Assembly (NCBI GenBank): GCA_903861205.1
Contig: CAIOTC010000020.1
Location: 133,273-197,272, forward strand
Reading direction: 5' to 3'
Source: an uncultured bacterium
GTDB lineage: Bacteria > Patescibacteriota > Minisyncoccia > Phycocordibacterales > DATDWN01
Length of the DNA: 64,000 bases
Position 1 is the first letter of the stretch, and each line of letters opens with the position of its first letter. The notes under the pieces were generated by a model. That model ran no database searches. It saw nothing but the letters and a program-made list of their open reading frames with translations, and had not been told where the DNA came from. This document shows positions 13,376 through 48,724 of the stretch, piece by piece. The position numbers and the translations under genes were made by a program.

Positions 13376-13408
13376 AGAATAATAGTTAATTTGTAATAGA
13401 TGTATTAT

Positions 13409-13527
13409 AACACAAAACAAAAACAAACATAATTTTGGAGCACGGATATTTTTCTGCTGAAAAATTCCTCAAGCCTCCGCCCGCCGGCGTCCGGAGTCTC
13501 CAAAATTATGTTTGTTTTTGTTTTGTT
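13409..13527 (+). repeat. family-B element, copy 2 (divergent core, 30-bp perfect stem)
   Basis: Stem aacacaaaacaaaaacaaacataattttggag / ctccaaaattatgtttgtttttgttttgtt; loop keeps ATTTTTCTGCTGAAAAATT. Confidence 0.55.
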
Positions 13528-14566: not shown

Positions 14567-16259
14567 TGTTTTTGTTTAAATTATCGTGTTGTGTAGCGTC
14601 CGAGCCATAGCTATATTCAGGACAGAAGAAGACATAAATTTCGCTTAGATTTATTAGACCGTACACTTGCAAGTCATTGGTGCCAGCCAGCACTTTGTTA
14701 ATAACTTGTCTAATAATGGCCTGTTTTGCTTTAAAATTCAAGCCCTTGAGTTTTTGTAATGCTTCCCCTGCAAACATTTTAACCTCGTCTTCGTTCGGTA
14801 ACAGCACATCATCCTTTGTTACGGCTTCCAAATGAGCTTTGTTTATTTGATCTTCAAATGAACGAATTTTTTCTCGCAAGGGTTTTACATATTCTTCAAA
14901 CTTCTCAAGTGTGATAACTTCCTGAGCATATGCTTTGGCAAAGCGGTCCTCTTGCGATCGCAATTTTACGATTTCTTTTTGCGTCAGATCGGTATCAATT
15001 GACATTTTGTTCAGCACATTATTTCCGCGAGTATTTTTCCATCGCTCGATTTGCTCAAGCAGCAAAGTCGGTGAACTCATAACCTCTTTCATTCTTTCCC
15101 ATACAGCCTCGTCGGCAATTCTGGCGTTGATTCCTGGTTGTTTGCATGTCGGAGGAAATGGAAATGTATGGACACGATTGGTGCATCTGTAATAGAGGTG
15201 TTTGCCTTTCTGCACACCTTCCCCTGCCCTTCTGCCACCACAGACACACCAAATCATGCCAGCCAAGAGATATTCGTTTACTTTGTTTCTGCCAAGAGTC
15301 TCAAAATTCTTTTTCAATCGCAATCCAGCCCGTATAAACAAATCTTTGTCTTCGATAATCGCAGGGACTGTTATCGGGTACCATTCAGTTTTTGGTCTCA
15401 TTTTCCTGCTAGTCTTTTTTATTTTCCTGTACTTTTCAAATTTTTTCGGATTTTCTGGAACTACCGCATATGATGCTCCCCAGTATGTCGTGCCGATAAA
15501 AACCTCGTGTCTTAACAATGTGCTGAGAGTGCTTGTACTCCAAACACCTTTAAGACTTTTTCTTGGTTTTATACCAGTTTTTTGCAACTCTCTGACAACA
15601 CCCCTGACAGTCAATCCATCATCAGCAACCATTTTAAATATATTCTTTATAACATTCGCTTCATATTCGTTGATTTCGTAATGACCGACAACATACTCTG
15701 GAGTTCCGCGTTTTCCTTTGTTTGGAATGTAGTTATAGCCGTATGGAGCTTCGCTGGTCAGGACATGGCCATTTTTAACTCTGCTAATTTTTCCTAATCG
15801 AAATCTTTCTTTGATCTTCATGCGTTCATACTCAGCAAAAACACCTCTCATTTTATACATGATGACATCCTCGTCATTTTTTGGTGGAGGTATAGTAACA
15901 AAAAGTACAGGAATCTCCAGCTCCGATAATTCTTCTATTATCAGTTCTTGCCAAGCACCTCGTCTTGCTAATCGATCTGGGTCATAGGTAAGCACGGCAT
16001 CCCAAATTCTCTTTTTTGCATCAATTCGTAACTGATCAAGATCTGGCCGATACAGTATGTCCCCGCTCCATCCCTCGTCTTTGTATGTTTTAACAATTTC
16101 AAAACCGTGTTCTTTGGCATAAGAATTTACTTCTGCTAGTTGGACCTCAATTGTCTGTTGGTCCTCCTGATTTGAGGTTGAGACCCTTGCATACAAGGCT
16201 ACGAATTTGATGTTTTTTTGTGTTAATTCAATCATGGTTTTGTTGTTATATTTTAGCAA
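14499..16259 (-). CDS. large serine recombinase / integrase (resolvase domain + recombinase domain + zinc ribbon); C-terminus overlaps the ychF 5' end by about 68 nt
   Basis: ALYARVSTSNQ catalytic Ser motif; CVCGGRR...YYRCTNR zinc ribbon; long coiled-coil C-terminus. Confidence 0.85.
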   Translation of the reverse strand: MLKYNNKTMIELTQKNIKFVALYARVSTSNQEDQQTIEVQLAEVNSYAKEHGFEIVKTYKDEGWSGDILYRPDLDQLRIDAKKRIWDAVLTYDPDRLARRGAWQELIIEELSELEIPVLFVTIPPPKNDEDVIMYKMRGVFAEYERMKIKERFRLGKISRVKNGHVLTSEAPYGYNYIPNKGKRGTPEYVVGHYEINEYEANVIKNIFKMVADDGLTVRGVVRELQKTGIKPRKSLKGVWSTSTLSTLLRHEVFIGTTYWGASYAVVPENPKKFEKYRKIKKTSRKMRPKTEWYPITVPAIIEDKDLFIRAGLRLKKNFETLGRNKVNEYLLAGMIWCVCGGRRAGEGVQKGKHLYYRCTNRVHTFPFPPTCKQPGINARIADEAVWERMKEVMSSPTLLLEQIERWKNTRGNNVLNKMSIDTDLTQKEIVKLRSQEDRFAKAYAQEVITLEKFEEYVKPLREKIRSFEDQINKAHLEAVTKDDVLLPNEDEVKMFAGEALQKLKGLNFKAKQAIIRQVINKVLAGTNDLQVYGLINLSEIYVFFCPEYSYGSDATQHDNLNKNNDVFRSKYRNRGPPERRQVDAL

Positions 16260-24607: not shown

Positions 24608-24635
24608 TTGACAGAAAGACAAATTCGTGTATAAT
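24608..24635 (+). promoter_or_regulatory. consensus sigma-70-type promoter TTGACA-N16-TATAAT driving the GC-rich cassette
   Basis: cTTGACAgaaagacaaattcgtgTATAATagaca, followed by an SD and an ATG. Confidence 0.55.
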
Positions 24636-24673
24636 AGACATCGGAATAAAAGTTCACCGACATAGGAGATTCA

Positions 24674-24853
24674 ATGCTTAAATACAGGCTTTTCTTGTTG
24701 TTTTGGGTCCTCGTTTGGGGCTGGGTAGCATTTCGTTGCTTCCAAGTTCTGCCCTACAAGACCCCTGGAGTGCTCTGCACGATCAGCGTTTCGCTGGCGA
24801 TGGTGGCATTTGCCATCACTTTTCACAAATCGATGAAGCACCACTTCGACTAA
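24674..24853 (+). CDS. small membrane protein (59 aa, hypothetical)
   Basis: GGAG SD 7 nt upstream; two hydrophobic segments. Confidence 0.35.
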   Translation: MLKYRLFLLFWVLVWGWVAFRCFQVLPYKTPGVLCTISVSLAMVAFAITFHKSMKHHFD

Positions 24854-24866
24854 ACAAGGAGAAACA

Positions 24867-25184
24867 ATGATTCGACTCATAGCGATGCTTTCTTTCTATG
24901 CTGTGGCATTCGTGCCTGGCTGGTTTGCATTCCAGGAGCTTCGTCAGACTTTCTACGAACTCCGTGGCCTGCAAGCTCACTACAGTTTCGCACAAGAGAT
25001 GACCGTTCGTGGTCACATCTTTGCGGCACTGATTCTCATGATAGTCGCCATGGCAATTGCATGGGTCGGCGATCGTGTGAGTGAGACGAAAGAAGAACGC
25101 GAACGCATGAAAAGAATTCGTTTCGAAGAACACGAACGCGAACTTCAAAACTATATGCGTCCTCGGCCACTTCTCCGTAGGTAA
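24867..25184 (+). CDS. hypothetical membrane protein (105 aa)
   Basis: AAGGAGA SD upstream; two TM helices then a charged tail. Confidence 0.4.
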   Translation: MIRLIAMLSFYAVAFVPGWFAFQELRQTFYELRGLQAHYSFAQEMTVRGHIFAALILMIVAMAIAWVGDRVSETKEERERMKRIRFEEHERELQNYMRPRPLLRR

Positions 25185-25330
25185 TGGGTTGAGACCCCAA
25201 GCAACAGTAAAGGAATCTCCAAAACCTGCAACGCAGGTGTCCGACAATCGTCGGACTTCTACCATAGAAAATTTGAAAAAGTTTTCTGCGGTGGGAGCAA
25301 TCCCTTATCTGTTCTTTGAGGAGATAGACG

Positions 25331-25618
25331 ATGAATACGCCGAGTGTCAAAATCAACTTTCGTGGATTCGAGATTTCAATCGGCATGAGCGAATGTTGGG
25401 TCGGTTGCAACATACTGCCCATGCGTCCAGCCATCATGGTTAACAAGGACGGCAAAGAAGTTGCAATGATTTATTCCACTGGCCGTTCCAACACGGACAA
25501 CAATACCACTCTCGAGGTGGATGGCGAAGTACTGTTCGGGGTCATGCGGGAAATCATCAAAAAAGACCCAGTCGGCCCGATTCGGTTGCCTGAAGGTGAT
25601 GGAGCCATCGAGTACTAG
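25331..25618 (+). CDS. hypothetical protein (95 aa)
   Basis: GAGGAG SD upstream; followed by a GGGCGAC/GTCGCCC hairpin terminator. Confidence 0.35.
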   Translation: MNTPSVKINFRGFEISIGMSECWVGCNILPMRPAIMVNKDGKEVAMIYSTGRSNTDNNTTLEVDGEVLFGVMREIIKKDPVGPIRLPEGDGAIEY

Positions 25619-25630
25619 GTGTTCTTTATA

Positions 25631-25660
25631 GGGCGACGCAGTTTGTCGCCCCTTGTATTC
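25631..25660 (+). terminator. intrinsic terminator hairpin gggcgac-gcagttt-gtcgccc
   Basis: 7-bp GC stem immediately after the 25331..25618 stop. Confidence 0.4.
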
Positions 25661-25726
25661 AGATCATAACGAAAGTTGTGATCTGAAATTCAGGAATCAA
25701 GTGTTCTTTCACAAGGAGCTTTAACC

Positions 25727-26116
25727 GTGCGACAAATAGTGACTTTTGATATGGTTCTCATGGCTTGCCAGCTTGAGAGGTTCTACGAGCTGTATCTGCA
25801 CATTCTCGCGGCAACGTGGGCAAATCAAGAGGCCACCTGTCGCAAACTCGGCATGACCGACTATGATCCTCAGTGCATCAAGCTGAGTTACGAGATGGTG
25901 ATCTTCACAATCCGTAAACGTGCTTCTGGTACACTGATGTGGCATGCTTCGCTCGAACGGAGACCCATCCAGCAACCGAGAGGAATAATCATCCTCGGTT
26001 CATCTTCAAAAGATACAATCAGTGAGATTCTGGCGACAATCGAGCCAAGGACGACTGAGCTTGGGATGTTCCTGAAAATGGAGCACTCTGAGGAATCTTC
26101 TGGAGGAATGTACTAG
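25727..26116 (+). CDS. hypothetical protein (129 aa, GTG start)
   Basis: AAGGAG SD 6-7 nt upstream of the GTG. Confidence 0.35.
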   Translation: MRQIVTFDMVLMACQLERFYELYLHILAATWANQEATCRKLGMTDYDPQCIKLSYEMVIFTIRKRASGTLMWHASLERRPIQQPRGIIILGSSSKDTISEILATIEPRTTELGMFLKMEHSEESSGGMY

Positions 26117-26173
26117 TTCGGTTGAACTCGGCGAGCAGTTTTGATACAATTCCAATCAGAAAAAGGAGAGCAC

Positions 26174-26281
26174 ATGGGACAGTTTGGTTCCAAGGGCGGG
26201 CTGGTCAGGTTGGTTCCGCTCAAGAGCAATCGCAAAGAAAAGGATGCCGACAAAAAGGCACCCAAAAAGGCCGCTCAGTAG
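26174..26281 (+). CDS. small peptide (35 aa), paralog of the next ORF; N-terminus MGQFGSKGG
   Basis: AAAGGAGAG SD; shared N-terminal motif with 26292..26420. Confidence 0.35.
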   Translation: MGQFGSKGGLVRLVPLKSNRKEKDADKKAPKKAAQ

Positions 26282-26291
26282 GAGGACTACG

Positions 26292-26420
26292 ATGCCTGGA
26301 TTCGGCTCGAGGGGAGGATTCCGAGACCTAGGGGCTAATGTTAAGCCCACGAGGACGTTTTCTCCGCCCAAACCCGTGCAAAAAGAAACTGCACCGACTA
26401 CTACCAAACCGAAGTCGTAA
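26292..26420 (+). CDS. small peptide (42 aa), N-terminus MPGFGSRGG, Pro/Thr/Lys-rich C-terminus
   Basis: Perfect AGGAGG SD 6 nt upstream; followed by an intrinsic terminator. Confidence 0.35.
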   Translation: MPGFGSRGGFRDLGANVKPTRTFSPPKPVQKETAPTTTKPKS

Positions 26421-26449
26421 CAAATCGGTTGATTCAAAAGAAAGGAGGT

Positions 26450-26481
26450 CCGCCCGCATGTAATGTGCGGGCTTTCGTTTT
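26450..26481 (+). terminator. Rho-independent terminator gcccgca-tgtaatg-tgcgggc + TTTCGTTTT
   Basis: 7-bp GC-rich stem plus U-tract closing the GC-rich cassette. Confidence 0.55.
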
Positions 26482-27202
26482 ATATATTTCCCAAAAATAC
26501 TTTTTCTAAAATTCCAGAATCCATCAAATTTTTAGGCTTGCCTTCAGCCACAATGTTTCCTTTATCCAAAACGTAAGTCCTGTGTGCAATTTCATTTACC
26601 GATTTTAGATTATGCTCAACTATCACAATAGATATTTTACGAGCTTCATTTATGTGTTTTATTTTTTCAAAAACTTCTTTAACAATTTTTGGTGCAAGTC
26701 CGATTGAAGGTTCATCAAGCAGTAGCACTTTTGGATCTGTCATCATTCCACGAGCAATAGCCAACATTTGCTGTTGACCGCCAGAAAGATGTCCTGACAA
26801 TTCTTTCAGTTTTGGTTTGAGTGCTGGAAACAAATCCAAAACTTCCGCGATTCTCTCTTTTATTTCATTTTTTGATTCAACTGTGTAAGCACCGATTTCT
26901 AAATTTTCTTTAACCGTCAAACTGGAGAAAACTCGTCGGCCTTGTGGCACATATGAAATACCTCTGTCTATCATCTCGCGTGTCTCTGGTGAAATTTCCT
27001 TTTCATGCCACAAAACTTTCCCAGAGTGAATTGGAATAAGTCCGAATACAGCTTTCAATATCGTGGATTTACCAGCTCCGTTTGGTCCCATCAATGCCAC
27101 AATTTCACCTTCATCCACAAACATGGAAATACCATCGAGAGCTTTCAAACTTCCGTAGTTCACATGCAAATTATTCAGTTGTAATAATTTTTCTTTGTCC
27201 AT
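26480..27202 (-). CDS. livF: branched-chain amino acid ABC transporter ATP-binding protein LivF
   Basis: GPNGAGKSTILK Walker A, LSGGQQQMLAIARGM signature. Confidence 0.85.
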   Translation of the reverse strand: MDKEKLLQLNNLHVNYGSLKALDGISMFVDEGEIVALMGPNGAGKSTILKAVFGLIPIHSGKVLWHEKEISPETREMIDRGISYVPQGRRVFSSLTVKENLEIGAYTVESKNEIKERIAEVLDLFPALKPKLKELSGHLSGGQQQMLAIARGMMTDPKVLLLDEPSIGLAPKIVKEVFEKIKHINEARKISIVIVEHNLKSVNEIAHRTYVLDKGNIVAEGKPKNLMDSGILEKVFLGNI

Positions 27203-27209
27203 TTCATTT

Positions 27210-27962
27210 TTACTCGCCCAAATAGGCGTCCATGACTTCTCGCTTTGAAAGCACATCATTGGGGATGCCTTCCGCCAAAAGTTTGCCGTTATCCAAAACT
27301 ATTATGTGATCACATAACTCACGAATGATATCTATGTTGTGTTCAACCAAAATCACAGTTTTACCTTGCTCTTTTAGGTGTTGAATCACTCCGATAACAA
27401 TTTTTCTCATCTCTGGAAAAAGCCCAGCAAATGGTTCGTCCAGAAAGAAAATATCACTGTCATCACCGAAGCCGTTGGACATTGCAAGCACCCTGCCTAT
27501 TTCGAGCAGTTTTCTCTGGCCGTATGACAAATTTTTAGCTAGGTCATTTCTCTTTTCCCACAAATCAACTTTTTTCAAAACTTCCTCCGCTCTTTCAAGA
27601 TGGAATTTTTTGTGCGTTTCAAACAGTGAAGAAAAAACATTTCTTTTTGTTAGGACAACAAAAATATTGTCCAAAACGGGCATTTGCTCGAACAATCTAA
27701 CTTCCTGAAATGTTCGTGTTATGCCGTAGTCAGATACCTCGTGAGGCAAGATTTTTGAAATTTCTTCTTTGGATGAAATAACAAACGAACCGCCATCAAT
27801 TTGAATGACGCCAGTCAGCAAATTGATCAGAGTTGATTTGCCAGAGCCATTCGGCCCGATCAATCCAGTGATTTTTCCTTTTTCAAAACCAACCGAAAGC
27901 CCATCGACGGCATATACTCCATCAAAATGTTTCGTTATTTTTTTGGTTTCGAGAATGTTCAT
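27210..27962 (-). CDS. livG: branched-chain amino acid ABC transporter ATP-binding protein LivG
   Basis: GPNGSGKSTLINLLTG, LSYGQRKLLEIGRVLA. Confidence 0.85.
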   Translation of the reverse strand: MNILETKKITKHFDGVYAVDGLSVGFEKGKITGLIGPNGSGKSTLINLLTGVIQIDGGSFVISSKEEISKILPHEVSDYGITRTFQEVRLFEQMPVLDNIFVVLTKRNVFSSLFETHKKFHLERAEEVLKKVDLWEKRNDLAKNLSYGQRKLLEIGRVLAMSNGFGDDSDIFFLDEPFAGLFPEMRKIVIGVIQHLKEQGKTVILVEHNIDIIRELCDHIIVLDNGKLLAEGIPNDVLSKREVMDAYLGE

Positions 27963-28825
27963 AGTTTGTATTCACCAATTAGTCCTTGTGGTCTGTACAA
28001 CATCAATAATATCAAAATTAAGCCATATGTGACTTGTCGCATTTGGGCTGCAATATCGCTCGGAAATCCGACAAAACGTAATGCTTCTGGCAAAATAACC
28101 AGGCAAACCGCTCCTATAACAGCACCTTTATTGTTTGCCAGTCCACCGAGAATGATAATTGCCAAAATGAAAATTGATTCCGAAAGTGCAAAACTTGTTG
28201 GATCAACATATGTGATATAGGATGCAAAAAGTGCACCAGCTATAGACGCAATCATCGCTCCGATAACAAAAATTGTCAGTTTGAAAAACAGCGTGTTGTA
28301 TCCGAAAACTTCAATGGCTTTTTCATCTTCTCGTATGGCTTTGAGCACTCTGCCGAAAGACGAACGGGTGATAAATTGTGAAATAAAGTAAACAAGCAAC
28401 GCGAACACTGCAACCATAATCAGAAAATAAAAGTTATTGCTGAAATCAATATTAAACAAAACTGGCTTTGCGATTCCTGGAATGCCAAGCGGTCCTCGTG
28501 TCAAAGATTGCCAGTTCAAAAATATGCTGTAAACAATAATGTTGAAGCCAAACGAACCGAGAGCAAAATAATCGCCATCAAATTTGGAAAGAACATAGCC
28601 GATGGCCAAACTGACGACACCTGTGATTATCATTCCAATAACAATCGACAGAAAAAAGTTCATGCCGAACGAAGTCAGAAGGATGGCTGTGACATACGCC
28701 CCGATTCCATAAAATGCCGCTTGCGTGATGGAGAGTAGTCCTGTGTAGCCAACGATAAGGTTAAGCGATAATGCCAGTATCGAGTAAATTCCTATTAGGA
28801 TTGCAATGTGTACGAAGTAGTCCAT
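27959..28825 (-). CDS. livM: branched-chain amino acid ABC transporter permease LivM
   Basis: Polytopic permease adjacent to livG with a 4-nt overlap. Confidence 0.8.
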   Translation of the reverse strand: MDYFVHIAILIGIYSILALSLNLIVGYTGLLSITQAAFYGIGAYVTAILLTSFGMNFFLSIVIGMIITGVVSLAIGYVLSKFDGDYFALGSFGFNIIVYSIFLNWQSLTRGPLGIPGIAKPVLFNIDFSNNFYFLIMVAVFALLVYFISQFITRSSFGRVLKAIREDEKAIEVFGYNTLFFKLTIFVIGAMIASIAGALFASYITYVDPTSFALSESIFILAIIILGGLANNKGAVIGAVCLVILPEALRFVGFPSDIAAQMRQVTYGLILILLMLYRPQGLIGEYKL

Positions 28826-28826: not shown

Positions 28827-29696
28827 TTATTGTTTTTTGCCTAAAATTCCGTTTGGTCTAAACAAAAGGAAAAGTATGAGCACACCGAAAGAAATTGCGT
28901 CTTTCCATTCACCAGATATTTTCCAAATGCCAAAGTTTTCGATAAAGCCGAGCAGAAACGCTCCGATAACTCCGCCATAAATATTGCCAACCCCACCAAT
29001 AATAGAAGCAATCACACCTTTCAGTAGCAGAGAGAAACCCATTGTCGGCTCTATGCCAGTGTCAAAGCCAACTAGGATGCCAGCCAGCCCAGCGATGCAT
29101 GATCCAATGAAAAATACTTTGCTGATAATTCCGTCAGTGTTAATACCAACCATTTTAGCCACTTCAGAATCGTCCGAAACCGCTTTTATTGCTTTGCCAA
29201 ATTTTGTAAATCGTAAAGTCAGGACTAGTCCAAACATGATCAAAATACTGGGTGCAAGTGCAATGAGTTGAACACCAGTAATAACACCGCCGAATATTTG
29301 AAATGTTTGTGTGCTTATGGTTGCAGGAAAAACTTGGAACTGGCTTGAAAACAAAATTGCGATTATCGCCTGTAGTGTGGTCATAACTCCGAGAGCCGCA
29401 ACCATAAAGACCATGCTCGATGCTTTTCTGGCTCGCAGTTTTTTGTAGACCGCTTTTTCAACCAAATATCCGACAAGTCCAGCAATTAAAACTCCGAGCA
29501 AAATGCTGATATAAATATCAAAGCCAAGTGTTCTGGAAAAATAAAAAACGGCATACCCACCAACAGCCGTCAGTACGCCATATCCGAGATCGAAGAATTT
29601 TGCGGTCCCGTAGATGAGGTTGAAACCCAAAGCAACCATTGAGTAAATAGCCCCTGCGATAATACTATTTACTATGAGTTGCGGAATAATGTCCAT
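28827..29696 (-). CDS. livH: branched-chain amino acid ABC transporter permease LivH
   Basis: Polytopic permease, LivH-like. Confidence 0.8.
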   Translation of the reverse strand: MDIIPQLIVNSIIAGAIYSMVALGFNLIYGTAKFFDLGYGVLTAVGGYAVFYFSRTLGFDIYISILLGVLIAGLVGYLVEKAVYKKLRARKASSMVFMVAALGVMTTLQAIIAILFSSQFQVFPATISTQTFQIFGGVITGVQLIALAPSILIMFGLVLTLRFTKFGKAIKAVSDDSEVAKMVGINTDGIISKVFFIGSCIAGLAGILVGFDTGIEPTMGFSLLLKGVIASIIGGVGNIYGGVIGAFLLGFIENFGIWKISGEWKDAISFGVLILFLLFRPNGILGKKQ

Positions 29697-29756
29697 GTGT
29701 ATTTATTATGACATTTTATACAAAATATGTGTAGTGTCATGGATTTAAAGCGACCA

Positions 29757-29785
29757 TTGACATAGCTTATGTAAAGGTGTATAAT
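29757..29785 (+). promoter_or_regulatory. consensus promoter TTGACA-N17-TATAAT, shares the GTGTATAATAGA -10 region with the promoter at 24608
   Basis: cattgacatagcttatgtaaaggtgtataatagaaa followed by an AAGGAGA SD. Confidence 0.55.
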
Positions 29786-29822
29786 AGAAAGTAGAAAAGT
29801 TCAATTTCAAGGAGAATACACA

Positions 29823-30674
29823 ATGAAGATTTTGGCTGAAGAAGGAATCGCTAATACTCTGGGAACCATGTTCTCGGATCTCAACAACAAAGACTTCTAC
29901 ATTGTCCAACTGGAACCAGCGGGTTCTGGCTACAACAGGCAGGACATCCACGGCCTCGACACAACACTCGAAATTGTCGACAAAGGTCTTCCGATCGTCA
30001 TGCTCGGCTGGCTTACACCAGCCATGTACATCGACAAGAAATCCGAGAAGTGGTTTGCGGCGACGGGTTATCCGAATGTGATATTCCTTCGATTACCCGC
30101 AACTTCGGAAGAAGTACTTGCTGCAATCGAGATGGTGAAGACCAGCAACCGCCCCTCTGATCCTCTGGCGATTGCTTTACTCGGCGTTGCTCAAACGAAC
30201 AGCGATATTGGAATTCTGCACCATGACCTCTATTCCGCTGAACGGGATGCTGATCGTATGACGCAGTGGGAAAAGAGGGCACGAAAAGTTTTCGGCGACA
30301 AGAATCAAGCCGAACTCATCTCGCTCGTCATGGAAGCTGCACCGACGCGAAACTCTTCCAGCAAGCTTGCTGGACAGAAATTCCCCGATGTCTGCATTGA
30401 TGTTGAGGGAACAATCCTGACCACTGACGGCCAGATCCGCTCCGAGGTTATCACCATGGCTGAAGAAAAAGCTGACGGCGGTCCGATCACGGTGTGGACT
30501 GGTGGCGACATCCACATACTCTCACAGCAACTTCGCAAAGCTGGCATTCTCTATAAAATCATTTCGAAAGAGATGATGCGAGGTGCCACAGTTCGAGTGG
30601 TGATCGACGACCAACCCGAAGTCGCCTTCAAAAGTGAGTATGGAATCGATTGCGAAGAGTATATTCAAGTCTAG
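29823..30674 (+). CDS. hypothetical protein (283 aa; C-terminal HAD-like DVEGT motif is weak), inserted opposite to the liv operon
   Basis: Own promoter, SD and terminator; GC about 50 % versus about 40 % in the surroundings. Confidence 0.45.
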   Translation: MKILAEEGIANTLGTMFSDLNNKDFYIVQLEPAGSGYNRQDIHGLDTTLEIVDKGLPIVMLGWLTPAMYIDKKSEKWFAATGYPNVIFLRLPATSEEVLAAIEMVKTSNRPSDPLAIALLGVAQTNSDIGILHHDLYSAERDADRMTQWEKRARKVFGDKNQAELISLVMEAAPTRNSSSKLAGQKFPDVCIDVEGTILTTDGQIRSEVITMAEEKADGGPITVWTGGDIHILSQQLRKAGILYKIISKEMMRGATVRVVIDDQPEVAFKSEYGIDCEEYIQV

Positions 30675-30697
30675 AGTTCGTTTCGACGGACTAAAGC

Positions 30698-30735
30698 AAA
30701 GCCCCCAGTTTTTTGCTGAGGGCTTTTTCTTTTAA
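30698..30735 (+). terminator. intrinsic terminator aaagcccccag-ttttttg-ctgagggcttttt
   Basis: Imperfect 10-bp stem + U-tract right after the 29823..30674 stop. Confidence 0.45.
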
Positions 30736-31817
30736 TATACTGCTTTCACGTACTGCTGATTTTTTGCCATCTGAAGTTCAAGCTGATACACGACAGTATG
30801 ATCCTGCAAAAAACTGAAATTGCCGATTGCTGGATTTGTGTATGTGTAATTGAAAACTGCTGTTGTCACATCTTTTCCAGGATTGGCTTCCATAGCTTTG
30901 ACTACATAAGTAGTCATGTCATAACCGAGAGCGGAAACATAGTCGGGAGCTTTGTTGTATTTTGCCGTATACATTGCTGTGTAATTAGCGGAGAATTGAC
31001 TTGGTGCGATGCCAGGAGCAAATGTTCCTTCCGCAAATGTGCCAAACTGCTGCAAGTTTTTGTTATCAACATCGATAAAAGTAATCGCGGTCTCTTTGTA
31101 GCCGAGCTGTCGCAACTCTTTCACTATTTCCAATGCGTCAGTTGGGTTGTCCATCGTCACAAACACCGCATCCGCTTTGCTTGCCACTATTTTCGTAGCG
31201 AAGGTCCTATAGTCACCAGCAGAACTTGGTGCAAGATCGTTATAAACAACAGTGTAGCCAGCAGTTGTTGCCTTTCTTACCATTCCATCACGAGATTGAA
31301 TGCCAAAATCGCTGTTTGCGTCAATCAGTGCCATTGTTTTGATTACTTTCTTTTGAATCATTGGCACAACAGTATCGAGCTGTTTGTCAGCATTCGGATA
31401 ACCACAGAAAACATTTGTCAACGGTTTGAACGAATCGCTACAGAACGAAAAGGAAAATACATCTTTATTTGCTTTCAAAGCCAGCGGAGCAACAGCAATT
31501 GTTTCGTCAGGAGAATATGTACCAATGATCACATCGACTTTATCAACATTCAAAAGTTTTGAAGCGGCGGACACTGCATCCGTTGGTTTTGAGTGACTAT
31601 CCTCAATAACAAACTGCACACCATCCTTTTCCAGTTGAGCTTGTGCTAACTGTTCACCTTGATACAACTTTTCTCCCGTGATGGAGAGATCACCAGTAAG
31701 TGGCAAGATGACACCAATCTTCAAACCTGATGGACTTGTTGGTTTGGAATTTTTGAAAAGAAAAAATCCACCAACAACCACTAAAACAACGACCACCGCA
31801 ATGACTATTTTTTTCAT
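30732..31817 (-). CDS. livJ: branched-chain amino acid ABC transporter substrate-binding protein (LivJ/LivK-like)
   Basis: N-terminal TM/signal, type-I periplasmic binding fold motifs, operon position. Confidence 0.78.
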   Translation of the reverse strand: MKKIVIAVVVVLVVVGGFFLFKNSKPTSPSGLKIGVILPLTGDLSITGEKLYQGEQLAQAQLEKDGVQFVIEDSHSKPTDAVSAASKLLNVDKVDVIIGTYSPDETIAVAPLALKANKDVFSFSFCSDSFKPLTNVFCGYPNADKQLDTVVPMIQKKVIKTMALIDANSDFGIQSRDGMVRKATTAGYTVVYNDLAPSSAGDYRTFATKIVASKADAVFVTMDNPTDALEIVKELRQLGYKETAITFIDVDNKNLQQFGTFAEGTFAPGIAPSQFSANYTAMYTAKYNKAPDYVSALGYDMTTYVVKAMEANPGKDVTTAVFNYTYTNPAIGNFSFLQDHTVVYQLELQMAKNQQYVKAVY

Positions 31818-39881: not shown

Positions 39882-41123
39882 TTACAAAAACAGCAAATTA
39901 CGATCCACTTCGTCGGCTTCGGTGCCTTTGACTTTGCGCTTCAACGCTTTGTGAGTGGAAGCGAGGTAAACAACGCGCTTGCCGAATTTGTCTTCAAGCG
40001 AGTCGATCTGTTTGTGGATTGTTTCGAACTTTCGCGCCTTGTCCGTTTCGCCAAACAAATCCGCCTGCGAGACAGACTCCGGGGCAAGCTCCTGCAAAGT
40101 GACACCAGCTGTCCGGTACAAAACGCCGGGTCGGTGCATTTTGGAAAAATATTTGCGTGCCAAAGAAATCAGAGTTTCCGGAGCATTTGTCGGCGATGAA
40201 AGAACGGCCGAAAAAGCGTCGTACCTGAAATTTTGGGTTTTGAGAAAAAAAGAAATTTTGCGCGGAACCAGTTTATAATGCCGAGCCTTGGCGCAAGCTT
40301 CCTCGATATGTTTCGAAAGTTGTGAAAGCAAAAAATTTTTGTCGTTTGTTGGCGGATGAAATGTCCGTGTTTTTTGAACCGATGAATAAACGGTTTTCGG
40401 CTCCGGATCGATTTCCAAAACGTAAACGCCGTTGAGCTCCAACCAAATGATTTCGTACGGCTTGGAAAGATTTTCTTTGACCCATGAAATATTTTTTCCA
40501 ACGAAGTCCTGGGCCGTGACAATCCCCCTACTTTTCAAAAATTTGGAAGTTTGCGGACCGATGCCCCAGATTTTTTCGATCGGCGTTTTGGACAGAAATT
40601 CCGGCGCTGTCTTTTTTTCAATGACAGAAAGTCCGTCCGGCTTTTTCCATTTCGACGCCACCTTGGCCAAAACTTTTGTCGGCGCCAATCCCACCGAAAC
40701 CGACAAACCGAGCTCGCTGACCACTTCGCGTTTAATCCGCTCGGCGATTTGCAAATATGTCATACGAAGCGTTCGATCGAGACCCGTTAGCTCGGCAAAA
40801 CATTCGTCGATGCTATATTCCTCGACATCATCCGCGTATCGGCGAACGATCTGGAACATGTCGTTCGAATATTTTGCGTACGAAGCGTAATCCCCCGGCA
40901 AAATCAATACGTTGGGAAATTCTTTTTTCAATTTAAATATTGGCATTCCGCGCACAATACCGAGTGCCTTGGCTTCGTATGAAAGCGCCGAAACGATTCC
41001 GCGTTCCTCGCCTGTCACCACCGTTCGTCCGCGCAAAGCCGGATTTTTGGCCACCTCGCAAGCCACGAAAAAAGCGTCGCCATCCATGTGGAAAATAACT
41101 TTGTCTCGCGGGATAGTTTTCAT
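39882..41123 (-). CDS. dinB: DNA polymerase IV (Y-family)
   Basis: FHMDGDAFFVACE, SIDECFAELTG catalytic motifs. Confidence 0.9.
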   Translation of the reverse strand: MKTIPRDKVIFHMDGDAFFVACEVAKNPALRGRTVVTGEERGIVSALSYEAKALGIVRGMPIFKLKKEFPNVLILPGDYASYAKYSNDMFQIVRRYADDVEEYSIDECFAELTGLDRTLRMTYLQIAERIKREVVSELGLSVSVGLAPTKVLAKVASKWKKPDGLSVIEKKTAPEFLSKTPIEKIWGIGPQTSKFLKSRGIVTAQDFVGKNISWVKENLSKPYEIIWLELNGVYVLEIDPEPKTVYSSVQKTRTFHPPTNDKNFLLSQLSKHIEEACAKARHYKLVPRKISFFLKTQNFRYDAFSAVLSSPTNAPETLISLARKYFSKMHRPGVLYRTAGVTLQELAPESVSQADLFGETDKARKFETIHKQIDSLEDKFGKRVVYLASTHKALKRKVKGTEADEVDRNLLFL

Positions 41124-41552: not shown

Positions 41553-42116
41553 TTACCTCGTCTCGTAACCCTGCACAAGCTCGCCGATTTCCATATTTTT
41601 TTCGTCCAAATGAACCCAGATGCTTTTCCCGAGCGACGGTTGAACAGCAAAACTCTCGCCTGGATTTCTGTCAGCGTAGTTAACCACCGCTACGCCTTTT
41701 TGAATTTCGATATTTTGCGGAGCGATTCTGTCGCCGACAAACATGGCGTTTGTCCCTTTGTACACACCGCCTTTATTTATTGCCTCAACCACGTAAAAAA
41801 ATGTTCCGCTGCCACCAGAGTTCTCGGTCAAATACATCACTGCGTCACTCACTCCATCGCCATTTAGGTCGCCGTAAACCGGCTGGCCGAAAACCGCCAC
41901 ATTATCTTTTTCCGCTTTGCCGTTTACCAGCCTAAAATATTTTCCGGCAACATTGTAAGTGATATTGAGCGGATCGTTTTTGACCGTTTTCGTTTTGTCA
42001 TATTTCAAAATAAAATTGACCACATTCCCAACCCACAATTTCTGCGTGGCTAAAAGTCCGAGCCCGATGATTATCAAAACCAAAAGCACGATTTGAAGCG
42101 TTTTGTTGTTTGTCAT
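41553..42116 (-). CDS. hypothetical membrane-anchored protein
   Basis: N-terminal TM, soluble beta-rich domain. Confidence 0.45.
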   Translation of the reverse strand: MTNNKTLQIVLLVLIIIGLGLLATQKLWVGNVVNFILKYDKTKTVKNDPLNITYNVAGKYFRLVNGKAEKDNVAVFGQPVYGDLNGDGVSDAVMYLTENSGGSGTFFYVVEAINKGGVYKGTNAMFVGDRIAPQNIEIQKGVAVVNYADRNPGESFAVQPSLGKSIWVHLDEKNMEIGELVQGYETR

Positions 42117-42299: not shown

Positions 42300-43030
42300 C
42301 CCTGTCGAGGCCTGATTCTCTCGGTGCGGCCTGCATTAATCCCCACCACGACGATTCTGGCCGGCGTGCACGGCTCCTACAACGCCGTCTGGGTGAAGGG
42401 CGTTTACGGGGAAGATACGTTCTACTATGGCCGCGGCGCGGGATCGCGGCCCACCGGTGTAGCGGTGGCGAGCGACCTGATGCGGGTGGCGCGCGAGATT
42501 CGCAACGGCAGCCCGCAGCGCGTCTCGCCGTTCGCGCACGAGCGGCTGGGCGAATACAAGCCCGTCCCGGTGACGGTGCAGCGGCGCGGCCGCCGGCCCG
42601 GCAACGCGCGCGAGCTGCGCAACGCGGTGGCGCCTTCCCGGCCGCTGCACACCTGTGCCGGACAATCACACCGGCCTCGCGGCAAGCGGCCTGATTTCAG
42701 TAGTTTAGAATGTGGAATCGCGGTTGCATCACAGGCCGCAACGGCGAGCCAGCCGCGCGCGATACGCTCGTCGGTGCGGCTGGTGACCGGGTAAGACGAG
42801 GCCTCCCCGCGCGTGCCGTCGGCGCGGCTGTATCGCACGGTCGCCGTGAAGGTGCGGTGGCGGGCTTGATATCGCGGTGCACGATGCCGCGGCCAAGCCG
42901 CACCTGGCGCCGTCAGCGATCCGGCTGCCCGGCGGGCGCAGCGACGGGTTGTTGGTGAAAGCCAGGTCGGTATTCGAGCTCGCCGCCAGGCTTGGGCGAG
43001 GGTGGCGTCGTCCGCCATTACAGCCCACTC
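42300..43030. other. approx. 0.7-kb foreign DNA segment with about 70 % GC embedded in a 40 % GC genome
   Basis: Abrupt composition shift; long spurious ORFs on both strands typical of high-GC DNA. Confidence 0.7.
42324..42500 (+). pseudogene. C-terminal catalytic-domain fragment of a homoserine dehydrogenase from a high-GC donor (70 % GC)
   Basis: ILAGVHGSYNAVWVKGVYGEDTFYYGRGAGSRPTGVAVASDLMRVAREI matches the HSD FYGRGAG..PTA.AV..D region; no ACT domain follows. Confidence 0.45.
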
Positions 43031-43186
43031 ACTACCCGCCCATATTCCATTGCCAAAGTATACGCTCTTTGTTTGTAATGAAGAACATAAGTCCACCGGC
43101 TGCTGCGCAGAAGCAGAAACAACAACGCAGAAAGTAAGGCCAGCCCGCAAGAATAGTGATGTGCACATGTAATAGTTCTCCACTAG

Positions 43187-44591: not shown

Positions 44592-45203
44592 TTACAACCC
44601 AAATTTTTTCAGTCGTGAACGAATAGCGCCGGGGTTGCGGCCGAACATAACAGAAAGTTCCTTTATTGTCTTACTTTTCTCAATTCCTAGTTTTTCCAAC
44701 TCAATATCCTCCTCACCCGTCCATGGTTTGTAAGCGTTTTGATACTTCGCTCGTTGCTTTTCCAAAATTTCAAAAAATTTTTTAGGTAGAAACGTATTCA
44801 TAATTTTAATATTGCCTTCCAATATTATAGGAGTCATGCCGCGAATTTCGTCGGCAAAAATACAGTCAGGAATAGGGTTGTAAAGAAAAATTTTTTTATT
44901 CAGCAAAAAAGCGTTATGGATCTCCAGAAAAGTTGCGCCTCCGATATAATTCTGAATCCCTTTCTTTTCTAAATTTAAAACCAAAATCGCATCATGTCGA
45001 GAAATTATCTCGTAATCTTTTTTGAGCATTTCCTTTTTCCAATTTTCACTTTCCTCTTTACTTTTATTTTTCATTTCCTCTTCCATTCCCGGGGAATCAT
45101 AACCGTTCGGCATAGTTAGTTTATGCCCCATGGATTCAAGCTCCGGAACAATTTCCGGTATTTTGTGGTAATGATATTTGCTGGCACAAATAAAAATTTT
45201 CAT
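44592..45203 (-). CDS. nucleoside 2-deoxyribosyltransferase-like (Rossmann) domain protein with C-terminal HTH-like tail
   Basis: IGGATFLEIHNAF resembles the NDT DSGTxFExG motif; C-terminal TIKELSVMFGRNPGAIRSRLKKFG. Confidence 0.4.
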   Translation of the reverse strand: MKIFICASKYHYHKIPEIVPELESMGHKLTMPNGYDSPGMEEEMKNKSKEESENWKKEMLKKDYEIISRHDAILVLNLEKKGIQNYIGGATFLEIHNAFLLNKKIFLYNPIPDCIFADEIRGMTPIILEGNIKIMNTFLPKKFFEILEKQRAKYQNAYKPWTGEEDIELEKLGIEKSKTIKELSVMFGRNPGAIRSRLKKFGL

Positions 45204-45267
45204 AAATATATTTTATCACACCTGGATTAAAGGTATCTGACTACGTTTTCCGAGGTGTTCATTAATT

Positions 45268-45984
45268 TTAAAACATCAGACTGGATCTGTGCAAAAAATT
45301 AATATTATAAAAGATTTCAAGAAAAGATATGAACGATGTGATATGTGATTTTATTTGTTCTCTTGAAATTTTCGGACCTACTACGGATTTTTCAAATAGT
45401 TTTGGAAAATCTTCTATAAACCCCGGGTGTAATTTATCAAATTCAAACATCCCCATTTGTCCACAAATTTCCAAAAATACTCCGGCAACCCCGACAGAAT
45501 CAAGTGTGGTTCTTTTATCTAATTTTAAATTTTTTACATATTTATCATACTTTGGCATAACTTCATCAAACGCCCATTTCATATAACCATCCAGATTTTT
45601 CTCAGCATATTCAAAATGTTGCTTGAACATTTTTTCTTGTTCTGTAAGTTTTGATTCATCCACATTTTCTTCCAATTCTCCGTCTTTTACACCTTCAAAA
45701 AATTTATCTTGAGGCGAAGCACCTTTTAAAATTTTCTGGGGAAAAGCATTCCACGCATCATTAAAAAGCATCATAGCTTTTTCAAAATCTTTTTCGTTTA
45801 TTTCCGCCGGCAACTTATTCATCATAAACTGAAAATAATCTTTTGAAATAGAGCTGGTTGGTTTATCAAAATTAAAAATAAAATCTTTCAGCCATTCTAC
45901 CGAAACACCTTTTATTTTAATTTTACTTAAAAAAACCGCCAAATCTTTCTCAACTTTTTTAGGATTTAATTTTTCAAATTTCAT
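45268..45984 (-). CDS. hypothetical protein
   Basis: About 238-aa ORF, no recognisable motif. Confidence 0.4.
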   Translation of the reverse strand: MKFEKLNPKKVEKDLAVFLSKIKIKGVSVEWLKDFIFNFDKPTSSISKDYFQFMMNKLPAEINEKDFEKAMMLFNDAWNAFPQKILKGASPQDKFFEGVKDGELEENVDESKLTEQEKMFKQHFEYAEKNLDGYMKWAFDEVMPKYDKYVKNLKLDKRTTLDSVGVAGVFLEICGQMGMFEFDKLHPGFIEDFPKLFEKSVVGPKISREQIKSHITSFISFLEIFYNINFLHRSSLMF

Positions 45985-46135
45985 ATTTAGACAATTTTTT
46001 CTATCCAATCATCCCCCGCCAAATTCTCAATCATTTCCGTCCCCAAATCATCCAGAATCCCCGCATCCGTAAATGCACCCCTCACCGCCCGCATTTTGTA
46101 TTTGGTTTCAGGCATATTGGCATAAATCATACATT

Positions 46136-46447
46136 TTAATCATCAAGCTCACTATCTGTAAACTGGCTTTTGATTACCGCTTTTCTATATTTTAAAATTT
46201 CTAACTCTTTTTTATATTCAGAATTTTTGTTTTCCTCCATTGTTATCATATTTTCCAAAGCTAAAATCGAATATTTAAAATCCTCTTTTAGATTTTCTTT
46301 TATATCATCCATACTTAAAGATCTATTTTCAACTTTTAGTTTTGCGTTTAAGATTTCAAGTTCTTCATCAGACTCCTTGATTTCCCGATCCTTGTTGATA
46401 ATTTCTTTTTCAGTGTCATCAATAAATTGTTGTTTGATATTTTTCAT
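46136..46447 (-). CDS. hypothetical coiled-coil protein
   Basis: 103-aa, Lys/Glu-rich heptads. Confidence 0.35.
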   Translation of the reverse strand: MKNIKQQFIDDTEKEIINKDREIKESDEELEILNAKLKVENRSLSMDDIKENLKEDFKYSILALENMITMEENKNSEYKKELEILKYRKAVIKSQFTDSELDD

Positions 46448-46480
46448 GTATTTAAAATTAATAATTTATCATTGATATTT

Positions 46481-48126: not shown

Positions 48127-48166
48127 AGTTTAATTATACCATATTTACACCTCCTCTGCCACTTCG

Positions 48167-48198: not shown

Positions 48199-48204
48199 GT
48201 TATT

Positions 48205-48720: not shown

Positions 48721-48724
48721 AAAA

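What the first reader, a model, noticed from the sequence alone, without database searches (positions are those of the whole stretch)
29745..30735. Self-contained foreign cassette inserted in opposite orientation between livJ and livH, sharing its promoter -10 region with the 24.6-kb cassette
The liv operon (livJ -> livH-M-G-F, minus strand) is interrupted by a plus-strand gene (29823..30674, 283 aa, about 50 % GC). The gene carries a TTGACA-N17-TATAAT promoter, an AAGGAGA SD and an intrinsic terminator. Its -10 region GTGTATAATAGA is the same 12-mer as in the promoter at 24608-24635. That suggests both cassettes derive from the same donor or cassette type, much like phage morons, each being promoter + SD + gene + terminator. 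The protein is unassigned, with a weak HAD-like DVEGT motif near the C-terminus.
Basis: seen in the sequence. Interest (0 to 1): 0.55.

Follow-up and report, generated by a model that had tools for sequence, protein, structure and literature searches.

The report
Standalone phosphatase gene inside liv operon
The oppositely oriented, self-contained gene that splits an amino-acid transporter operon is real, but it is an old, lineage-conserved gene of tiny-genome (Patescibacteria) bacteria. It encodes an uncharacterised receiver-like/HAD phosphatase and is notable because it uses a classic promoter, ribosome-binding site and GC-rich coding in a genome whose other genes mostly lack these.

Summary
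A + strand 283-aa ORF (29823..30674) lies between livH and livJ (both on the - strand). It has TTGACA-N17-TATAAT, an AAGGAGA SD and an intrinsic terminator, and it shares GTGTATAATAGA with the promoter at 24608.

None of 80 other liv loci carries the gene, so it is an insertion relative to the usual livJ-livH order. But five related genomes have it beside livJ, and three of those show livH on its other side. Synonymous sites between these copies are near or at saturation. No viral homologue was found. Its 50 % GC equals that of dnaB in the same window. It is therefore an old resident, not a recent foreign moron.

The protein belongs to an unannotated family (393 clusters at 50 % identity). It has a CheY-like N-domain without the acceptor Asp, a helical linker, and a capless HAD phosphatase domain with motifs DxExT, T, K and DD.

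Three further results:
- Only this gene, the six small ORFs of the 24.6-kb cassette and two other small genes have an SD. The other 49 ORFs have none, and many look leaderless.
- A relative (L098) has both cassettes with similar promoter-leaders.
- The gene is GC-rich in all 11 genomes, and its mRNA is unusually structured.

The parts
29757..29785 (+). Sigma-70-type promoter of the 283-aa gene: TTGACA (29757-62), 17-nt spacer, TATAAT (29780-85), embedded in GTGTATAATAGA (29777-88).
   Evidence: It is conserved in L010, L098 and L013.
29786..29822 (+). Short leader carrying AAAAGTTCA (29795-29803), which is shared with the 24.6-kb cassette leader, and the SD AAGGAGA (29809-29815), 7 nt before the ATG.
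29823..30674 (+). CDS of the 283-aa protein ('X283'). Residues 1-110 form a CheY-like alpha/beta domain. Residues 114-175 form a three-helix linker with conserved D113, H134, D135 and E164. Residues 186-283 form a capless HAD domain (D193-x-E195-x-T197, T226, K249, D262-D263).
   Evidence: dN/dS is 0.06-0.2.
30675..30692 (+). First 3'-UTR hairpin (GUUCGUU...GACGGAC) directly after the stop codon. A hairpin at the same place is seen in L006, L010, L012 and L013.
30698..30735 (.). Intrinsic terminator (AAGCCCCCAG / CUGAGGGCUU plus U-tract). It is bidirectional: on the - strand it lies directly downstream of the livJ stop codon (30732).
   Evidence: The stem AAAGCCCC...GGGGCUUUUU is conserved in L006, L010, L012, L013 and L098.
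29705..29733 (-). Promoter-like site for livH: TACACA, N17, TGT-CATAAT. The -10 box ends 8 nt before the livH ATG (29696), so the mRNA is leaderless or nearly so. It lies back-to-back with the X283 promoter.
   Evidence: The block is conserved in L098.
28827..29696 (-). livH-like permease, the left neighbour. It has no SD.
30732..31817 (-). livJ-like substrate-binding protein, the right neighbour. It is now transcriptionally separated from livHMGF.
24608..26472 (+). Companion cassette. It has a promoter TTGACA-N16-TATAAT (24608-35), six SD-led small ORFs (24674..24853, 24867..25184, 25331..25618, 25727..26116, 26174..26281, 26292..26420), an internal hairpin at 25631-51 and a terminator at 26452-72. 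It lies between the NUDIX gene and livF.
   Evidence: Five of the six ORFs are present at the same place in L098, four of them at 88-91 % identity.

Best explanation
The segment 29697..30731 is a monocistronic transcription unit of a Patescibacteria (CPR) genome. It is not recently acquired DNA.

How it is expressed: a near-consensus sigma-70 promoter drives a roughly 30-nt leader with a canonical SD. Two hairpins end the transcript, and the second also terminates the convergent livJ. In an ancestor of this sub-lineage the unit came to lie between livJ and livH, either by insertion or by replacing a second binding-protein gene. livHMGF is then left to its own leaderless-type promoter 8 nt upstream of the ATG. 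The unit has been inherited there since.

What it encodes: a conserved, unannotated two-domain enzyme. The N-terminal domain has a CheY-like fold but lacks the phospho-acceptor Asp, so it is probably a regulatory or substrate-binding module. A helical linker carries conserved D113, H134, D135 and E164. The C-terminal domain is a capless HAD phosphotransferase.

Inferred mechanism: Mg2+ is held by D193, D262 and D263. D193 forms the aspartyl-phosphate. E195 replaces the usual Asp+2 as general acid/base. T226 and K249 bind the phosphate. Capless HADs typically act on large or otherwise presented substrates, and the closest structures are polynucleotide 3'-phosphatases. A phosphomonoesterase acting on a nucleic-acid end, nucleotide or protein is therefore the best guess.

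Shown: the anatomy, conservation, fold, motifs and synteny. Inferred: expression, catalysis and substrate.
For: Anatomy.

Coding and under purifying selection: dN/dS 0.06-0.2. The 42 homologues of 45-100 % identity that were aligned are almost all 281-296 aa.

Family breadth: 393 clusters at 50 % identity with E<=1e-3, and 250 with E<=1e-10. Record titles name Saccharibacteria, Patescibacteria UBA910 and Zambryskiibacteriota.

Fold:
- AF2 model pLDDT 93.3.
- The full model also hits T4 Pnkp, Pnkp1 and class C acid phosphatase.
- The Foldseek top hit is T4 polynucleotide kinase/phosphatase, E 1.3e-4.

HAD by sequence: a C-domain profile against the PDB finds Cof-type HADs, E 1.4e-4, aligning motifs I and II. 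Hydrolase_3 is sub-threshold in 16 of 42 members.

Motif conservation over 192 members: D193 186, E195 160, T197 182, T/S226 184, K249 181, D262 182, D/N263 184.

Old residence: the gene is adjacent to livJ in L006, L010, L012, L097 and L098, with livH on its other side in L010, L012 and L098. Liv proteins are 75-89 % identical and X283 61-79 %. dS, measured against L006, L010 and L012, is 0.84 to saturated.

Ancestral contiguity of liv.

Not phage or defence.
Against: - No experiment exists. The promoter, TSS, SD use and catalysis are all inferred.
- E at Asp+2 is atypical for HAD phosphatases, so the chemistry could differ (8 members have D, 10 have Q).
- X283 is always 10-20 identity points more diverged than its flanking proteins. 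Its tree does not follow genomic context: L012 groups with L013, and L013 and L099 share flanks at 66-74 % but X283 at 54 %. This could mean allelic replacement rather than purely vertical descent.
- In L099 the gene abuts a prophage-like block (serine recombinase, terminase-like protein, methylase).
- The persistent GC excess (+6 to +21 points in 11 genomes) is not explained by this account.
Confidence: 0.6

Rival explanations
1. One reading: a recently acquired foreign cassette, moron-like, from the same donor as the 24.6-kb cassette.
For: - The unit has its own promoter, SD and terminator, lies in opposite orientation, and is about 10 GC points above the liv genes.
- It is absent from 80 other liv loci.
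- The promoter and leader resemble those of the 24.6-kb cassette.
- One homologue lies next to a prophage-like integrase block. A homologue of the 129-aa ORF of the other cassette lies next to an rve transposase.
Against: - The position next to livJ is kept in five diverged genomes. dS against the three of them that were tested is 0.84 to saturated.
- No viral-contig, PHROGs or PADLOC hit.
- GC 0.50 equals dnaB and the MacB genes in the same window.
- In L099 the adjacent phage-like genes have GC 0.33-0.37 against 0.55 for the gene, so it is not their cargo by composition.
- Alleles in different genomes are 46-83 % identical, not near-identical.
Confidence: 0.08
2. X283 and the small-ORF cassettes belong to a pool of GC-rich, SD-led, promoter-plus-terminator cassettes. 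These are exchanged among Patescibacteria by recombination, either as allelic replacement in conserved slots or as relocation. GC-biased gene conversion would then keep them GC-rich.
For: - The class is real. Nine SD-led ORFs are all Pfam-less, with median GC 0.49 against 0.43 for the rest (p 0.0015).
- Relatives show the same pattern: SD-led, Pfam-less genes that are GC-richer than most of their neighbours in L007 and L009, and X283 inside an array of about 10 small ORFs in L100.
- There are at least 5 different genomic contexts for X283 in 11 genomes.
- The gene tree and the context disagree, and X283 is more diverged than its flanks.
- Mobile-element genes lie nearby in L096-L100 and in the window (serine recombinase at 14499..16259).
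Against: - The extra divergence can be a simple rate difference (dN/dS 0.1-0.2).
- Different contexts at 50-65 % identity are expected in poorly syntenic small genomes.
- No repeats, att sites or integron-like recombination sites were identified.
- The NJ tree of 11 sequences is weak.
Confidence: 0.2
3. The newcomer is the neighbourhood, not X283. Under this view the low-GC liv genes and the block from the serine recombinase (14.5 kb) to livH (29.7 kb) moved in next to a resident X283.
For: - The liv genes and the 21-24.5 kb genes are at the low-GC end of the window (GC3 0.23-0.40), whereas X283 matches dnaB and cysS.
- A large serine recombinase lies beside ychF at 13.5-16.3 kb.
- In L009 ychF is the direct divergent neighbour of X283.
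- In L070 ychF lies directly upstream of livH, and the homologue of the window ORF 12443..13426 follows livF.
Against: - livJ lies on the far side of X283, so a single insertion of livHMGF does not give the observed order.
- L012 and L016 have a DEAD helicase next to livJ and no recombinase.
- No att repeats were examined.
- ychF proximity is seen in only two other loci.
Confidence: 0.1
4. The GC-rich segment works mainly as a structured RNA and the ORF is incidental.
For: The CDS folds more stably than synonymous-codon permutations in 8 of 9 homologues (z -2.3 to -6.0). Ten control genes give z -2.6 to +1.4 (p 0.0008).
Against: - dN/dS is 0.06-0.2 and the ORF is intact in all homologues.
- The AF2 model is very confident.
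- RNAalifold finds no conserved structure: covariation term -0.73, with few compensatory pairs.
- No Rfam hit.
Confidence: 0.02

Closest known systems
T4 polynucleotide kinase/phosphatase (Pnkp) and bacterial Pnkp1: capless (C0) HAD 3'-phosphatase domain
   Same: - Best Foldseek hit: 2ia5, E 1.3e-4, prob 0.97.
- Same domain order: an alpha/beta N-domain followed by a C-terminal HAD domain, about 290 aa in all.
- A capless HAD core with motifs I-IV.
   Different: - The N-domain has no P-loop and resembles a receiver domain, not a kinase.
- Motif I is DxExT, not DxDxT.
- Full-length TM-score is only 0.27.
- There is no sequence-level match to Pnkp.
Cof-type HAD-IIB hydrolases and phosphomannomutases (for example 4qjb, 3mpo, PMM2)
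   Same: These are the only significant sequence relatives in the PDB: the C-domain profile gives E 1.4e-4 to 1e-2 and aligns motif I (DxDGT against DvEGT) and motif II. Sub-threshold matches to Hydrolase_3 and TIGR00099 also occur.
   Different: IIB enzymes carry a large C2B cap between motifs II and III. Here only about 20 residues separate T226 and K249, so there is no cap. The match covers only the first roughly 55 residues of the domain.
CheY-like receiver (REC) domains of response regulators
   Different: - No Asp at the end of beta3; position 62 is G, S or A, with D in 4 of about 168 members.
- The fifth strand and the conserved Lys are missing.
- No Pfam Response_reg hit, and no sequence match in the PDB.
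Phage morons (autonomous promoter-gene-terminator units inside prophages)
   Same: The unit has its own promoter and terminator, sits between host genes in opposite orientation, and differs in composition from its immediate neighbours.
   Different: - It is not inside a prophage here.
- No viral homologues were found.
- It is conserved across a bacterial phylum-level group.
- It has been resident long enough for synonymous sites to saturate.
High-affinity branched-chain amino acid (Liv/HAAT) ABC transporter operons
   Same: The flanking genes are livJ-, livH-, livM-, livG- and livF-type, in the usual order.
   Different: X283 is not a transporter component. In 80 other loci the operon is uninterrupted at this junction.

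Membership tests
HAD (haloacid dehalogenase-like) superfamily | Motif I: nucleophilic Asp at the end of strand 1, in the pattern hhhDxDx(T/V) | tested here: met
   D193 is present in 186 of 189 aligned members and T197 in 182. It aligns with DxDGT of Cof-type HADs.
HAD (haloacid dehalogenase-like) superfamily | Asp at nucleophile+2 (the general acid/base of phosphatases and mutases) | tested here: not met
   Position 195 is Glu in 160 members, Gln in 10 and Asp in only 8. The residue is acidic but one methylene longer. Other HAD branches (P-type ATPases, dehalogenases) also lack Asp here (own knowledge), so superfamily membership stands but phosphatase chemistry remains inferred.
HAD (haloacid dehalogenase-like) superfamily | Motif II Ser/Thr, motif III Lys, motif IV acidic pair (DD) | tested here: met
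   T/S226 in 184 members, K249 in 181, D262 in 182, D/N263 in 184. Each lies at the end of, or just before, the expected strand in the model.
HAD (haloacid dehalogenase-like) superfamily | Rossmannoid five-stranded core detectable by fold and by profile | tested here: met
Response-regulator receiver (REC) domain | Phospho-acceptor Asp at the end of beta3, an acidic pair after beta1, Thr/Ser after beta4, and Lys after beta5 | tested here: not met
   The end of beta3 is L/Y then G/S/A then W/F. Only an acidic residue at position 6 and T/S94 are partly kept. There is no beta5 and no Lys. The relation is fold similarity only.
T4 Pnkp-type polynucleotide kinase/phosphatase | N-terminal P-loop (GxxxxGK[ST]) kinase domain joined to a DxDxT phosphatase domain | tested here: not met
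   No P-loop is present in residues 1-110. The N-domain matches receivers, not kinases. Only the phosphatase half resembles Pnkp.
Phage moron / prophage cargo | Located within a prophage, with homologues in phage genomes | tested here: not met
   No phage genes flank it in the window. No relative was found in 2.9 million viral contigs or in PHROGs.
Phage moron / prophage cargo | Autonomous promoter and terminator around a single gene | tested here: met
   These are consensus matches only; no transcript data exist.
Anti-phage defence systems (PADLOC) | Match to a known defence protein model | tested here: not met
   No PADLOC hit at E<=0.1.

The most novel reading that the evidence does not exclude
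These Patescibacteria may run two gene-expression regimes. Bulk genes, including the ribosomal protein genes checked (rpsT, rpsF), would be SD-less and often leaderless. A small set of Pfam-less genes would use a shared strong promoter-leader module (TTGACAgaa ... GTGTATAAT ... AAAAGTTCA ... AGGAG), a canonical SD and intrinsic terminators. This set comprises X283, the small-ORF cassettes and a few others. In X283 a GC content of 0.50-0.61 is held whatever the host GC (0.34-0.50), and the mRNA is selected to be unusually structured. Such a set could be a separately translated regulon, for example one translated by 30S-dependent initiation only under certain conditions. X283, a pseudo-receiver/HAD phosphatase, would be its most widespread member.
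Probability: 0.25. Interest if true: 0.65.

Novelty: new variant of a known kind. Interest (0 to 1): 0.45.

Why it matters
Patescibacteria (CPR) make up a large share of bacterial diversity, and most of their lineage-specific genes have no annotation. This work assigns one widespread, unannotated family a fold, a catalytic motif set (HAD with DxExT) and a testable activity.

The locus also shows that an apparent foreign island can be an old resident whose distinctness lies in how it is expressed. It has an SD, a leader and a terminator in a genome that otherwise looks leaderless or SD-less, and its GC content and mRNA structure are actively maintained.

If the two-regime reading holds, it would bear on two practical matters. 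One is gene calling in CPR genomes, which depends on the start-codon context. The other is how these minimal cells partition translation.

Tried and rejected
- **Pfam, NCBIfam, PADLOC and PHROGs on X283 and the cassette ORFs.** No hit above threshold.
- **Whole-protein and N-domain profiles against PDB sequences.** Nothing meaningful. Only the C-domain profile worked.
- **AFDB50 fold search.** The library was unavailable.
- **Viral contig scan.** No relatives.
- **Rfam on the region and on the window.** Only a sub-threshold Thr_leader match over the terminator (27 bits against a gathering score of 55), taken as chance. No tRNA or rRNA was found that could give taxonomy or an anti-SD sequence.
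- **Structured-RNA idea.** Rejected after RNAalifold, although the excess folding energy remains unexplained.
- **Ordinary codon adaptation as the cause of high GC.** Rejected. G-ending and C-ending codons are both enriched, and the nearby ribosomal protein genes checked (rpsR, rpsF, rpsT, rpsO) do not show the enrichment.
- **Inverted repeat ATGACA...TGTCAT between the divergent promoters.** Not conserved in L098, so dropped.
- **Literature search for leaderless or SD usage in CPR or Saccharibacteria.** Nothing relevant was found in the held library.
- **Cluster look-up for names or accessions.** None returned.
- **Homologues of the 24.6-kb cassette in the first 95 loci.** None. They were found only later, in L098 and L096.
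Full report
**1. The observation**

The window contains a + strand ORF at 29823..30674 (283 aa). Its left neighbour, 28827..29696 (-), is a BPD_transp_2 permease (livH-like). Its right neighbour, 30732..31817 (-), is a Peripla_BP_6 binding protein (livJ-like). livM (27959..28825), livG (27210..27962) and livF (26480..27259) follow on the - strand.

Upstream of the ORF lie:
- TTGACA (29757-62), a 17-nt spacer and TATAAT (29780-85);
- a leader of about 37 nt;
- AAGGAGA (29809-15), 7 nt before the ATG.

This promoter and the one at 24608-24635 are the only perfect 12/12 sigma-70 matches in the 64 kb (expected 0.03). They share GTGTATAATAGA, which occurs twice against an expected 0.05.

Downstream, a small hairpin is followed by a strong hairpin and a U-tract (dG -23.3 kcal/mol, z -4.1). 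The strong hairpin also folds on the opposite strand just past the livJ stop, so it is a bidirectional terminator.

**2. Composition in context**

The gene has GC 0.50 and GC3 0.56, against 0.37-0.41 and 0.31-0.40 for the liv genes. However, the window is heterogeneous. dnaB (0.49/0.61), cysS, an S41 protease and the MacB/HlyD genes (0.48-0.52) are just as GC-rich, and the gene ranks 6th of 61 ORFs. Within this genome its composition is not alien. The liv genes sit at the AT-rich end.

**3. What the protein is**

No Pfam, NCBIfam, PADLOC or PHROGs model reaches threshold. A word-indexed search found 43 homologues of 45-100 % identity; the 42 that were aligned are almost all 281-296 aa. A profile search of 1.84 billion representatives found 393 clusters at 50 % identity with E<=1e-3 and 250 with E<=1e-10. 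Genome records with relatives are titled Saccharibacteria, Patescibacteria UBA910 and Zambryskiibacteriota. The neighbouring genes are typical of such genomes.

AlphaFold2 gives a very confident model (pLDDT 93.3, pTM 0.87) with three parts:
- **Residues 114-175:** three helices carrying conserved D113, H134, D135 and E164.
- **Residues 186-283:** a five-stranded capless HAD core.

Evidence on the HAD core:
- The best Foldseek hit is T4 polynucleotide kinase/phosphatase (E 1.3e-4).
- A profile of the C-domain alone finds Cof-type HAD-IIB hydrolases in the PDB at E 1.4e-4, aligning motifs I and II.
- Across 192 members the catalytic set is nearly invariant: D193, E195 (Asp in only 8), T197, T/S226, K249, D262 and D/N263.

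The receiver-like domain lacks the acceptor Asp, since position 62 is G, S or A, and it lacks the fifth strand and the Lys. It is therefore a pseudo-receiver by fold only.

One distant member (P0188) is fused to an HD_4 (RelA/SpoT-type) domain. dN/dS between homologues is 0.06-0.2.

Inference: the protein is a Mg2+-dependent phosphoryl-transfer enzyme working through an Asp193 phospho-intermediate, with Glu in the acid/base position. The substrate is unknown. The capless core and the Pnkp-like neighbours point to a phosphorylated macromolecule or nucleotide.

**4. Is it an insertion, and how old?**

A scan for livH relatives returned 80 metagenomic loci of 62-93 % identity. None encodes an X283 relative. 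About 43 have a livJ-type gene directly upstream of livH on the same strand. The closest (L016: livH 93 %, livM 92 %, livJ 79 %) has a second binding-protein gene in the livJ-livH slot. Relative to the common architecture, the gene does interrupt the operon.

The interruption is old, however. X283 lies next to livJ in five related genomes:

| Locus | X283 identity | Other side of X283 |
|---|---|---|
| L006 | 79 % | contig ends |
| L010 | 73 % | livH |
| L012 | 61 % | livH |
| L098 | 70 % | livH |
| L097 | 71 % | rearranged liv remnant |

Liv proteins in these genomes are 75-89 % identical to the window's. dS between the window copy and L006, L010 and L012 is 0.84, 1.3 and saturated.

More distant homologues sit in other core-gene contexts:
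- SpoU/Fpg (L007);
- YchF/PGM (L009);
- a 254-aa protein, AsnB and PPDK (L013, L099);
- an array of about ten small ORFs (L100).

No viral contig encodes a relative. In L099 the gene abuts a serine recombinase, a terminase-like protein and a methylase. That block has GC 0.33-0.37 against 0.55 for the gene, and the gene keeps its own promoter at the junction. The prophage therefore integrated beside it rather than carrying it.

**5. The link to the 24.6-kb cassette**

The second unit (24608..26472) has the other perfect promoter and two hairpins. It carries six small ORFs (59, 105, 95, 129, 35 and 42 aa), each with an AGGAG SD.

Beyond the 12-mer, the two leaders share AAAAGTTCA at similar spacing. 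The local alignment scores 30, a score reached by 1 of 1000 shuffles.

L098 is decisive. It carries both cassettes at the same two places. Four of the small proteins (59, 105, 129 and 35 aa) are 88-91 % identical; the 42-aa one is 42 %, and the 95-aa ORF has no match. Its two promoters share AACCTTGACAGAAA and GTGTATAAT.

The 129-aa protein has only six homologue clusters. One of them is a lone gene with its own promoter, next to an rve transposase.

So the two units are the same kind of unit and have travelled together in this sub-lineage. 'Same donor' is not shown.

**6. A broader pattern found on the way**

Of 58 ORF starts in the window, nine have a GGAG/GAGG SD at -18..-4:
- X283;
- the six small ORFs of the 24.6-kb cassette;
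- 60566..60934 (-);
- 63383..63598 (+).

None of the other 49 has one, against a background of 5.7 % at random ATGs. Eighteen starts have a box matching TATAAT at 5 of 6 positions or better, ending 4-12 nt (mostly exactly 6 nt) before the ATG. The background is 4.5 %. This is the signature of leaderless transcripts.

The same contrast holds in L006, L007 and L009. There rpsT looks leaderless and rpsF has no SD, while X283 is SD-led.

SD-led ORFs are GC-richer than the rest (median 0.49 against 0.43, p 0.0015). Gene starts were taken mechanically as the longest ORF, so some individual calls may be wrong. No transcript data exist.

**7. Unexplained features**

- **GC excess.** In 11 genomes X283 has GC 0.50-0.61 while its flanks have 0.34-0.50, an excess of 6-21 points (slope 0.37). 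It ranks first in GC among the 10-17 ORFs of five of the eight loci ranked. Both G- and C-ending codons are enriched, beyond the nearby ribosomal protein genes checked. With dS saturated, this must be maintained rather than inherited from a donor.
- **mRNA structure.** The CDS folds more stably than synonymous-codon permutations in 8 of 9 homologues (z -2.3 to -6.0). Ten control genes give z -2.6 to +1.4 (Mann-Whitney p 0.0008). RNAalifold finds no conserved structure.
- **Divergence and tree.** X283 is also consistently more diverged than its flanking proteins, and its tree does not track context.
- **Possible causes.** Selection for a compact or stable mRNA, or biased gene conversion at a recombination-prone locus, are both possible. 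Neither was tested.

**8. Verdict**

The described features are real. The unit is best read as a long-resident, autonomously expressed gene for a new HAD-family variant (pseudo-receiver plus capless DxExT HAD). It became lodged in the liv cluster of one Patescibacteria sub-lineage.

The 'recent foreign moron' reading is not supported. The 'same cassette type' reading is supported, and it extends to a small class of SD-led genes in an otherwise SD-less genome.

Interest is moderate. The protein family and the expression dichotomy are worth following up, but function and mechanism remain inferred.

Noticed in passing
whole window; examples 2009..2416, 6734..7981, 39882..41123, 41553..42116, 47572..48126, 61038..62429: Most genes have no Shine-Dalgarno sequence. 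Eighteen of 58 starts have a TATAAT-like box ending about 6 nt before the ATG, which looks leaderless (background 4.5 %). The same pattern is seen in related loci L006, L007 and L009, where rpsT looks leaderless and rpsF has no SD.
   Followed up: partly
window 3070-3167, 33783-33802, 35133-35183, 36496-36586, 55857-55940, 59035-59047: An AT-rich intergenic motif, TAAATTAAAAATT, occurs 16 times with at most 1 mismatch (expected 1.1), often in tandem. Its clusters lie in intergenic regions next to the starts of several SD-less genes (acyltransferase, both MacB genes, cysS and others). Its function is unknown.
   Followed up: partly
window 60566..60934 (-) and 63383..63598 (+): Two further small Pfam-less genes (122 and 71 aa) have strong AGGAGG SDs and clear intrinsic terminators. 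They are the only SD-led genes outside the two cassettes.
   Followed up: partly
window 13529..16259: A large serine recombinase (14499..16259, Resolvase+Recombinase+Zn_ribbon) overlaps the end of ychF (13529..14566). In L009 ychF is the direct divergent neighbour of X283. In L070 ychF lies directly upstream of livH, and the homologue of the window ORF 12443..13426 follows livF. This hints that 14.5-29.7 kb was rearranged or inserted.
   Followed up: partly
window 9472..12417 (-): The leucyl-tRNA synthetase ORF (981 aa) carries a NUDIX domain (residues 382-501, E 2e-16) right after the editing domain. This is an unusual insertion or fusion.
   Followed up: no
window 44592..49792: A low-GC block (0.30-0.39) contains a GmrSD/HNH endonuclease (46481..47572) and an EcoRI-type adenine methylase (48725..49792). 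It is probably a restriction-modification island.
   Followed up: no
window 42425..43183 (-): An ORF with GC 0.66 and GC2 0.68 is far above everything else in the window and has no Pfam hit. It may be a low-complexity protein or may not be a real gene.
   Followed up: no
L099 1..5939: A prophage-like block (LexA/S24-like protein, N6_N4 methylase, terminase-like protein, large serine recombinase; GC about 0.35) ends 61 bp before the X283 homologue. That homologue's promoter (TTGCAT-N17-TATAAT) overlaps the recombinase stop codon.
   Followed up: partly
L100 1423..7359: The X283 homologue lies inside an array of about ten small (58-114 aa) Pfam-less genes, all on the + strand. This recalls the window's small-ORF cassette. 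A tblastn of the window's six small ORFs found no match in L100.
   Followed up: partly
protein P0188 (562 aa) from the representative search: A distant family member is fused at its N-terminus to an HD_4 (RelA/SpoT-type hydrolase) domain. This is a possible pointer to nucleotide or alarmone metabolism.
   Followed up: no
L012 2917..5149 and L016 8265..11607: Relatives carry two or three extra binding-protein genes between livM and livG. The window lacks them, so the liv cluster gains and loses SBP paralogues.
   Followed up: no
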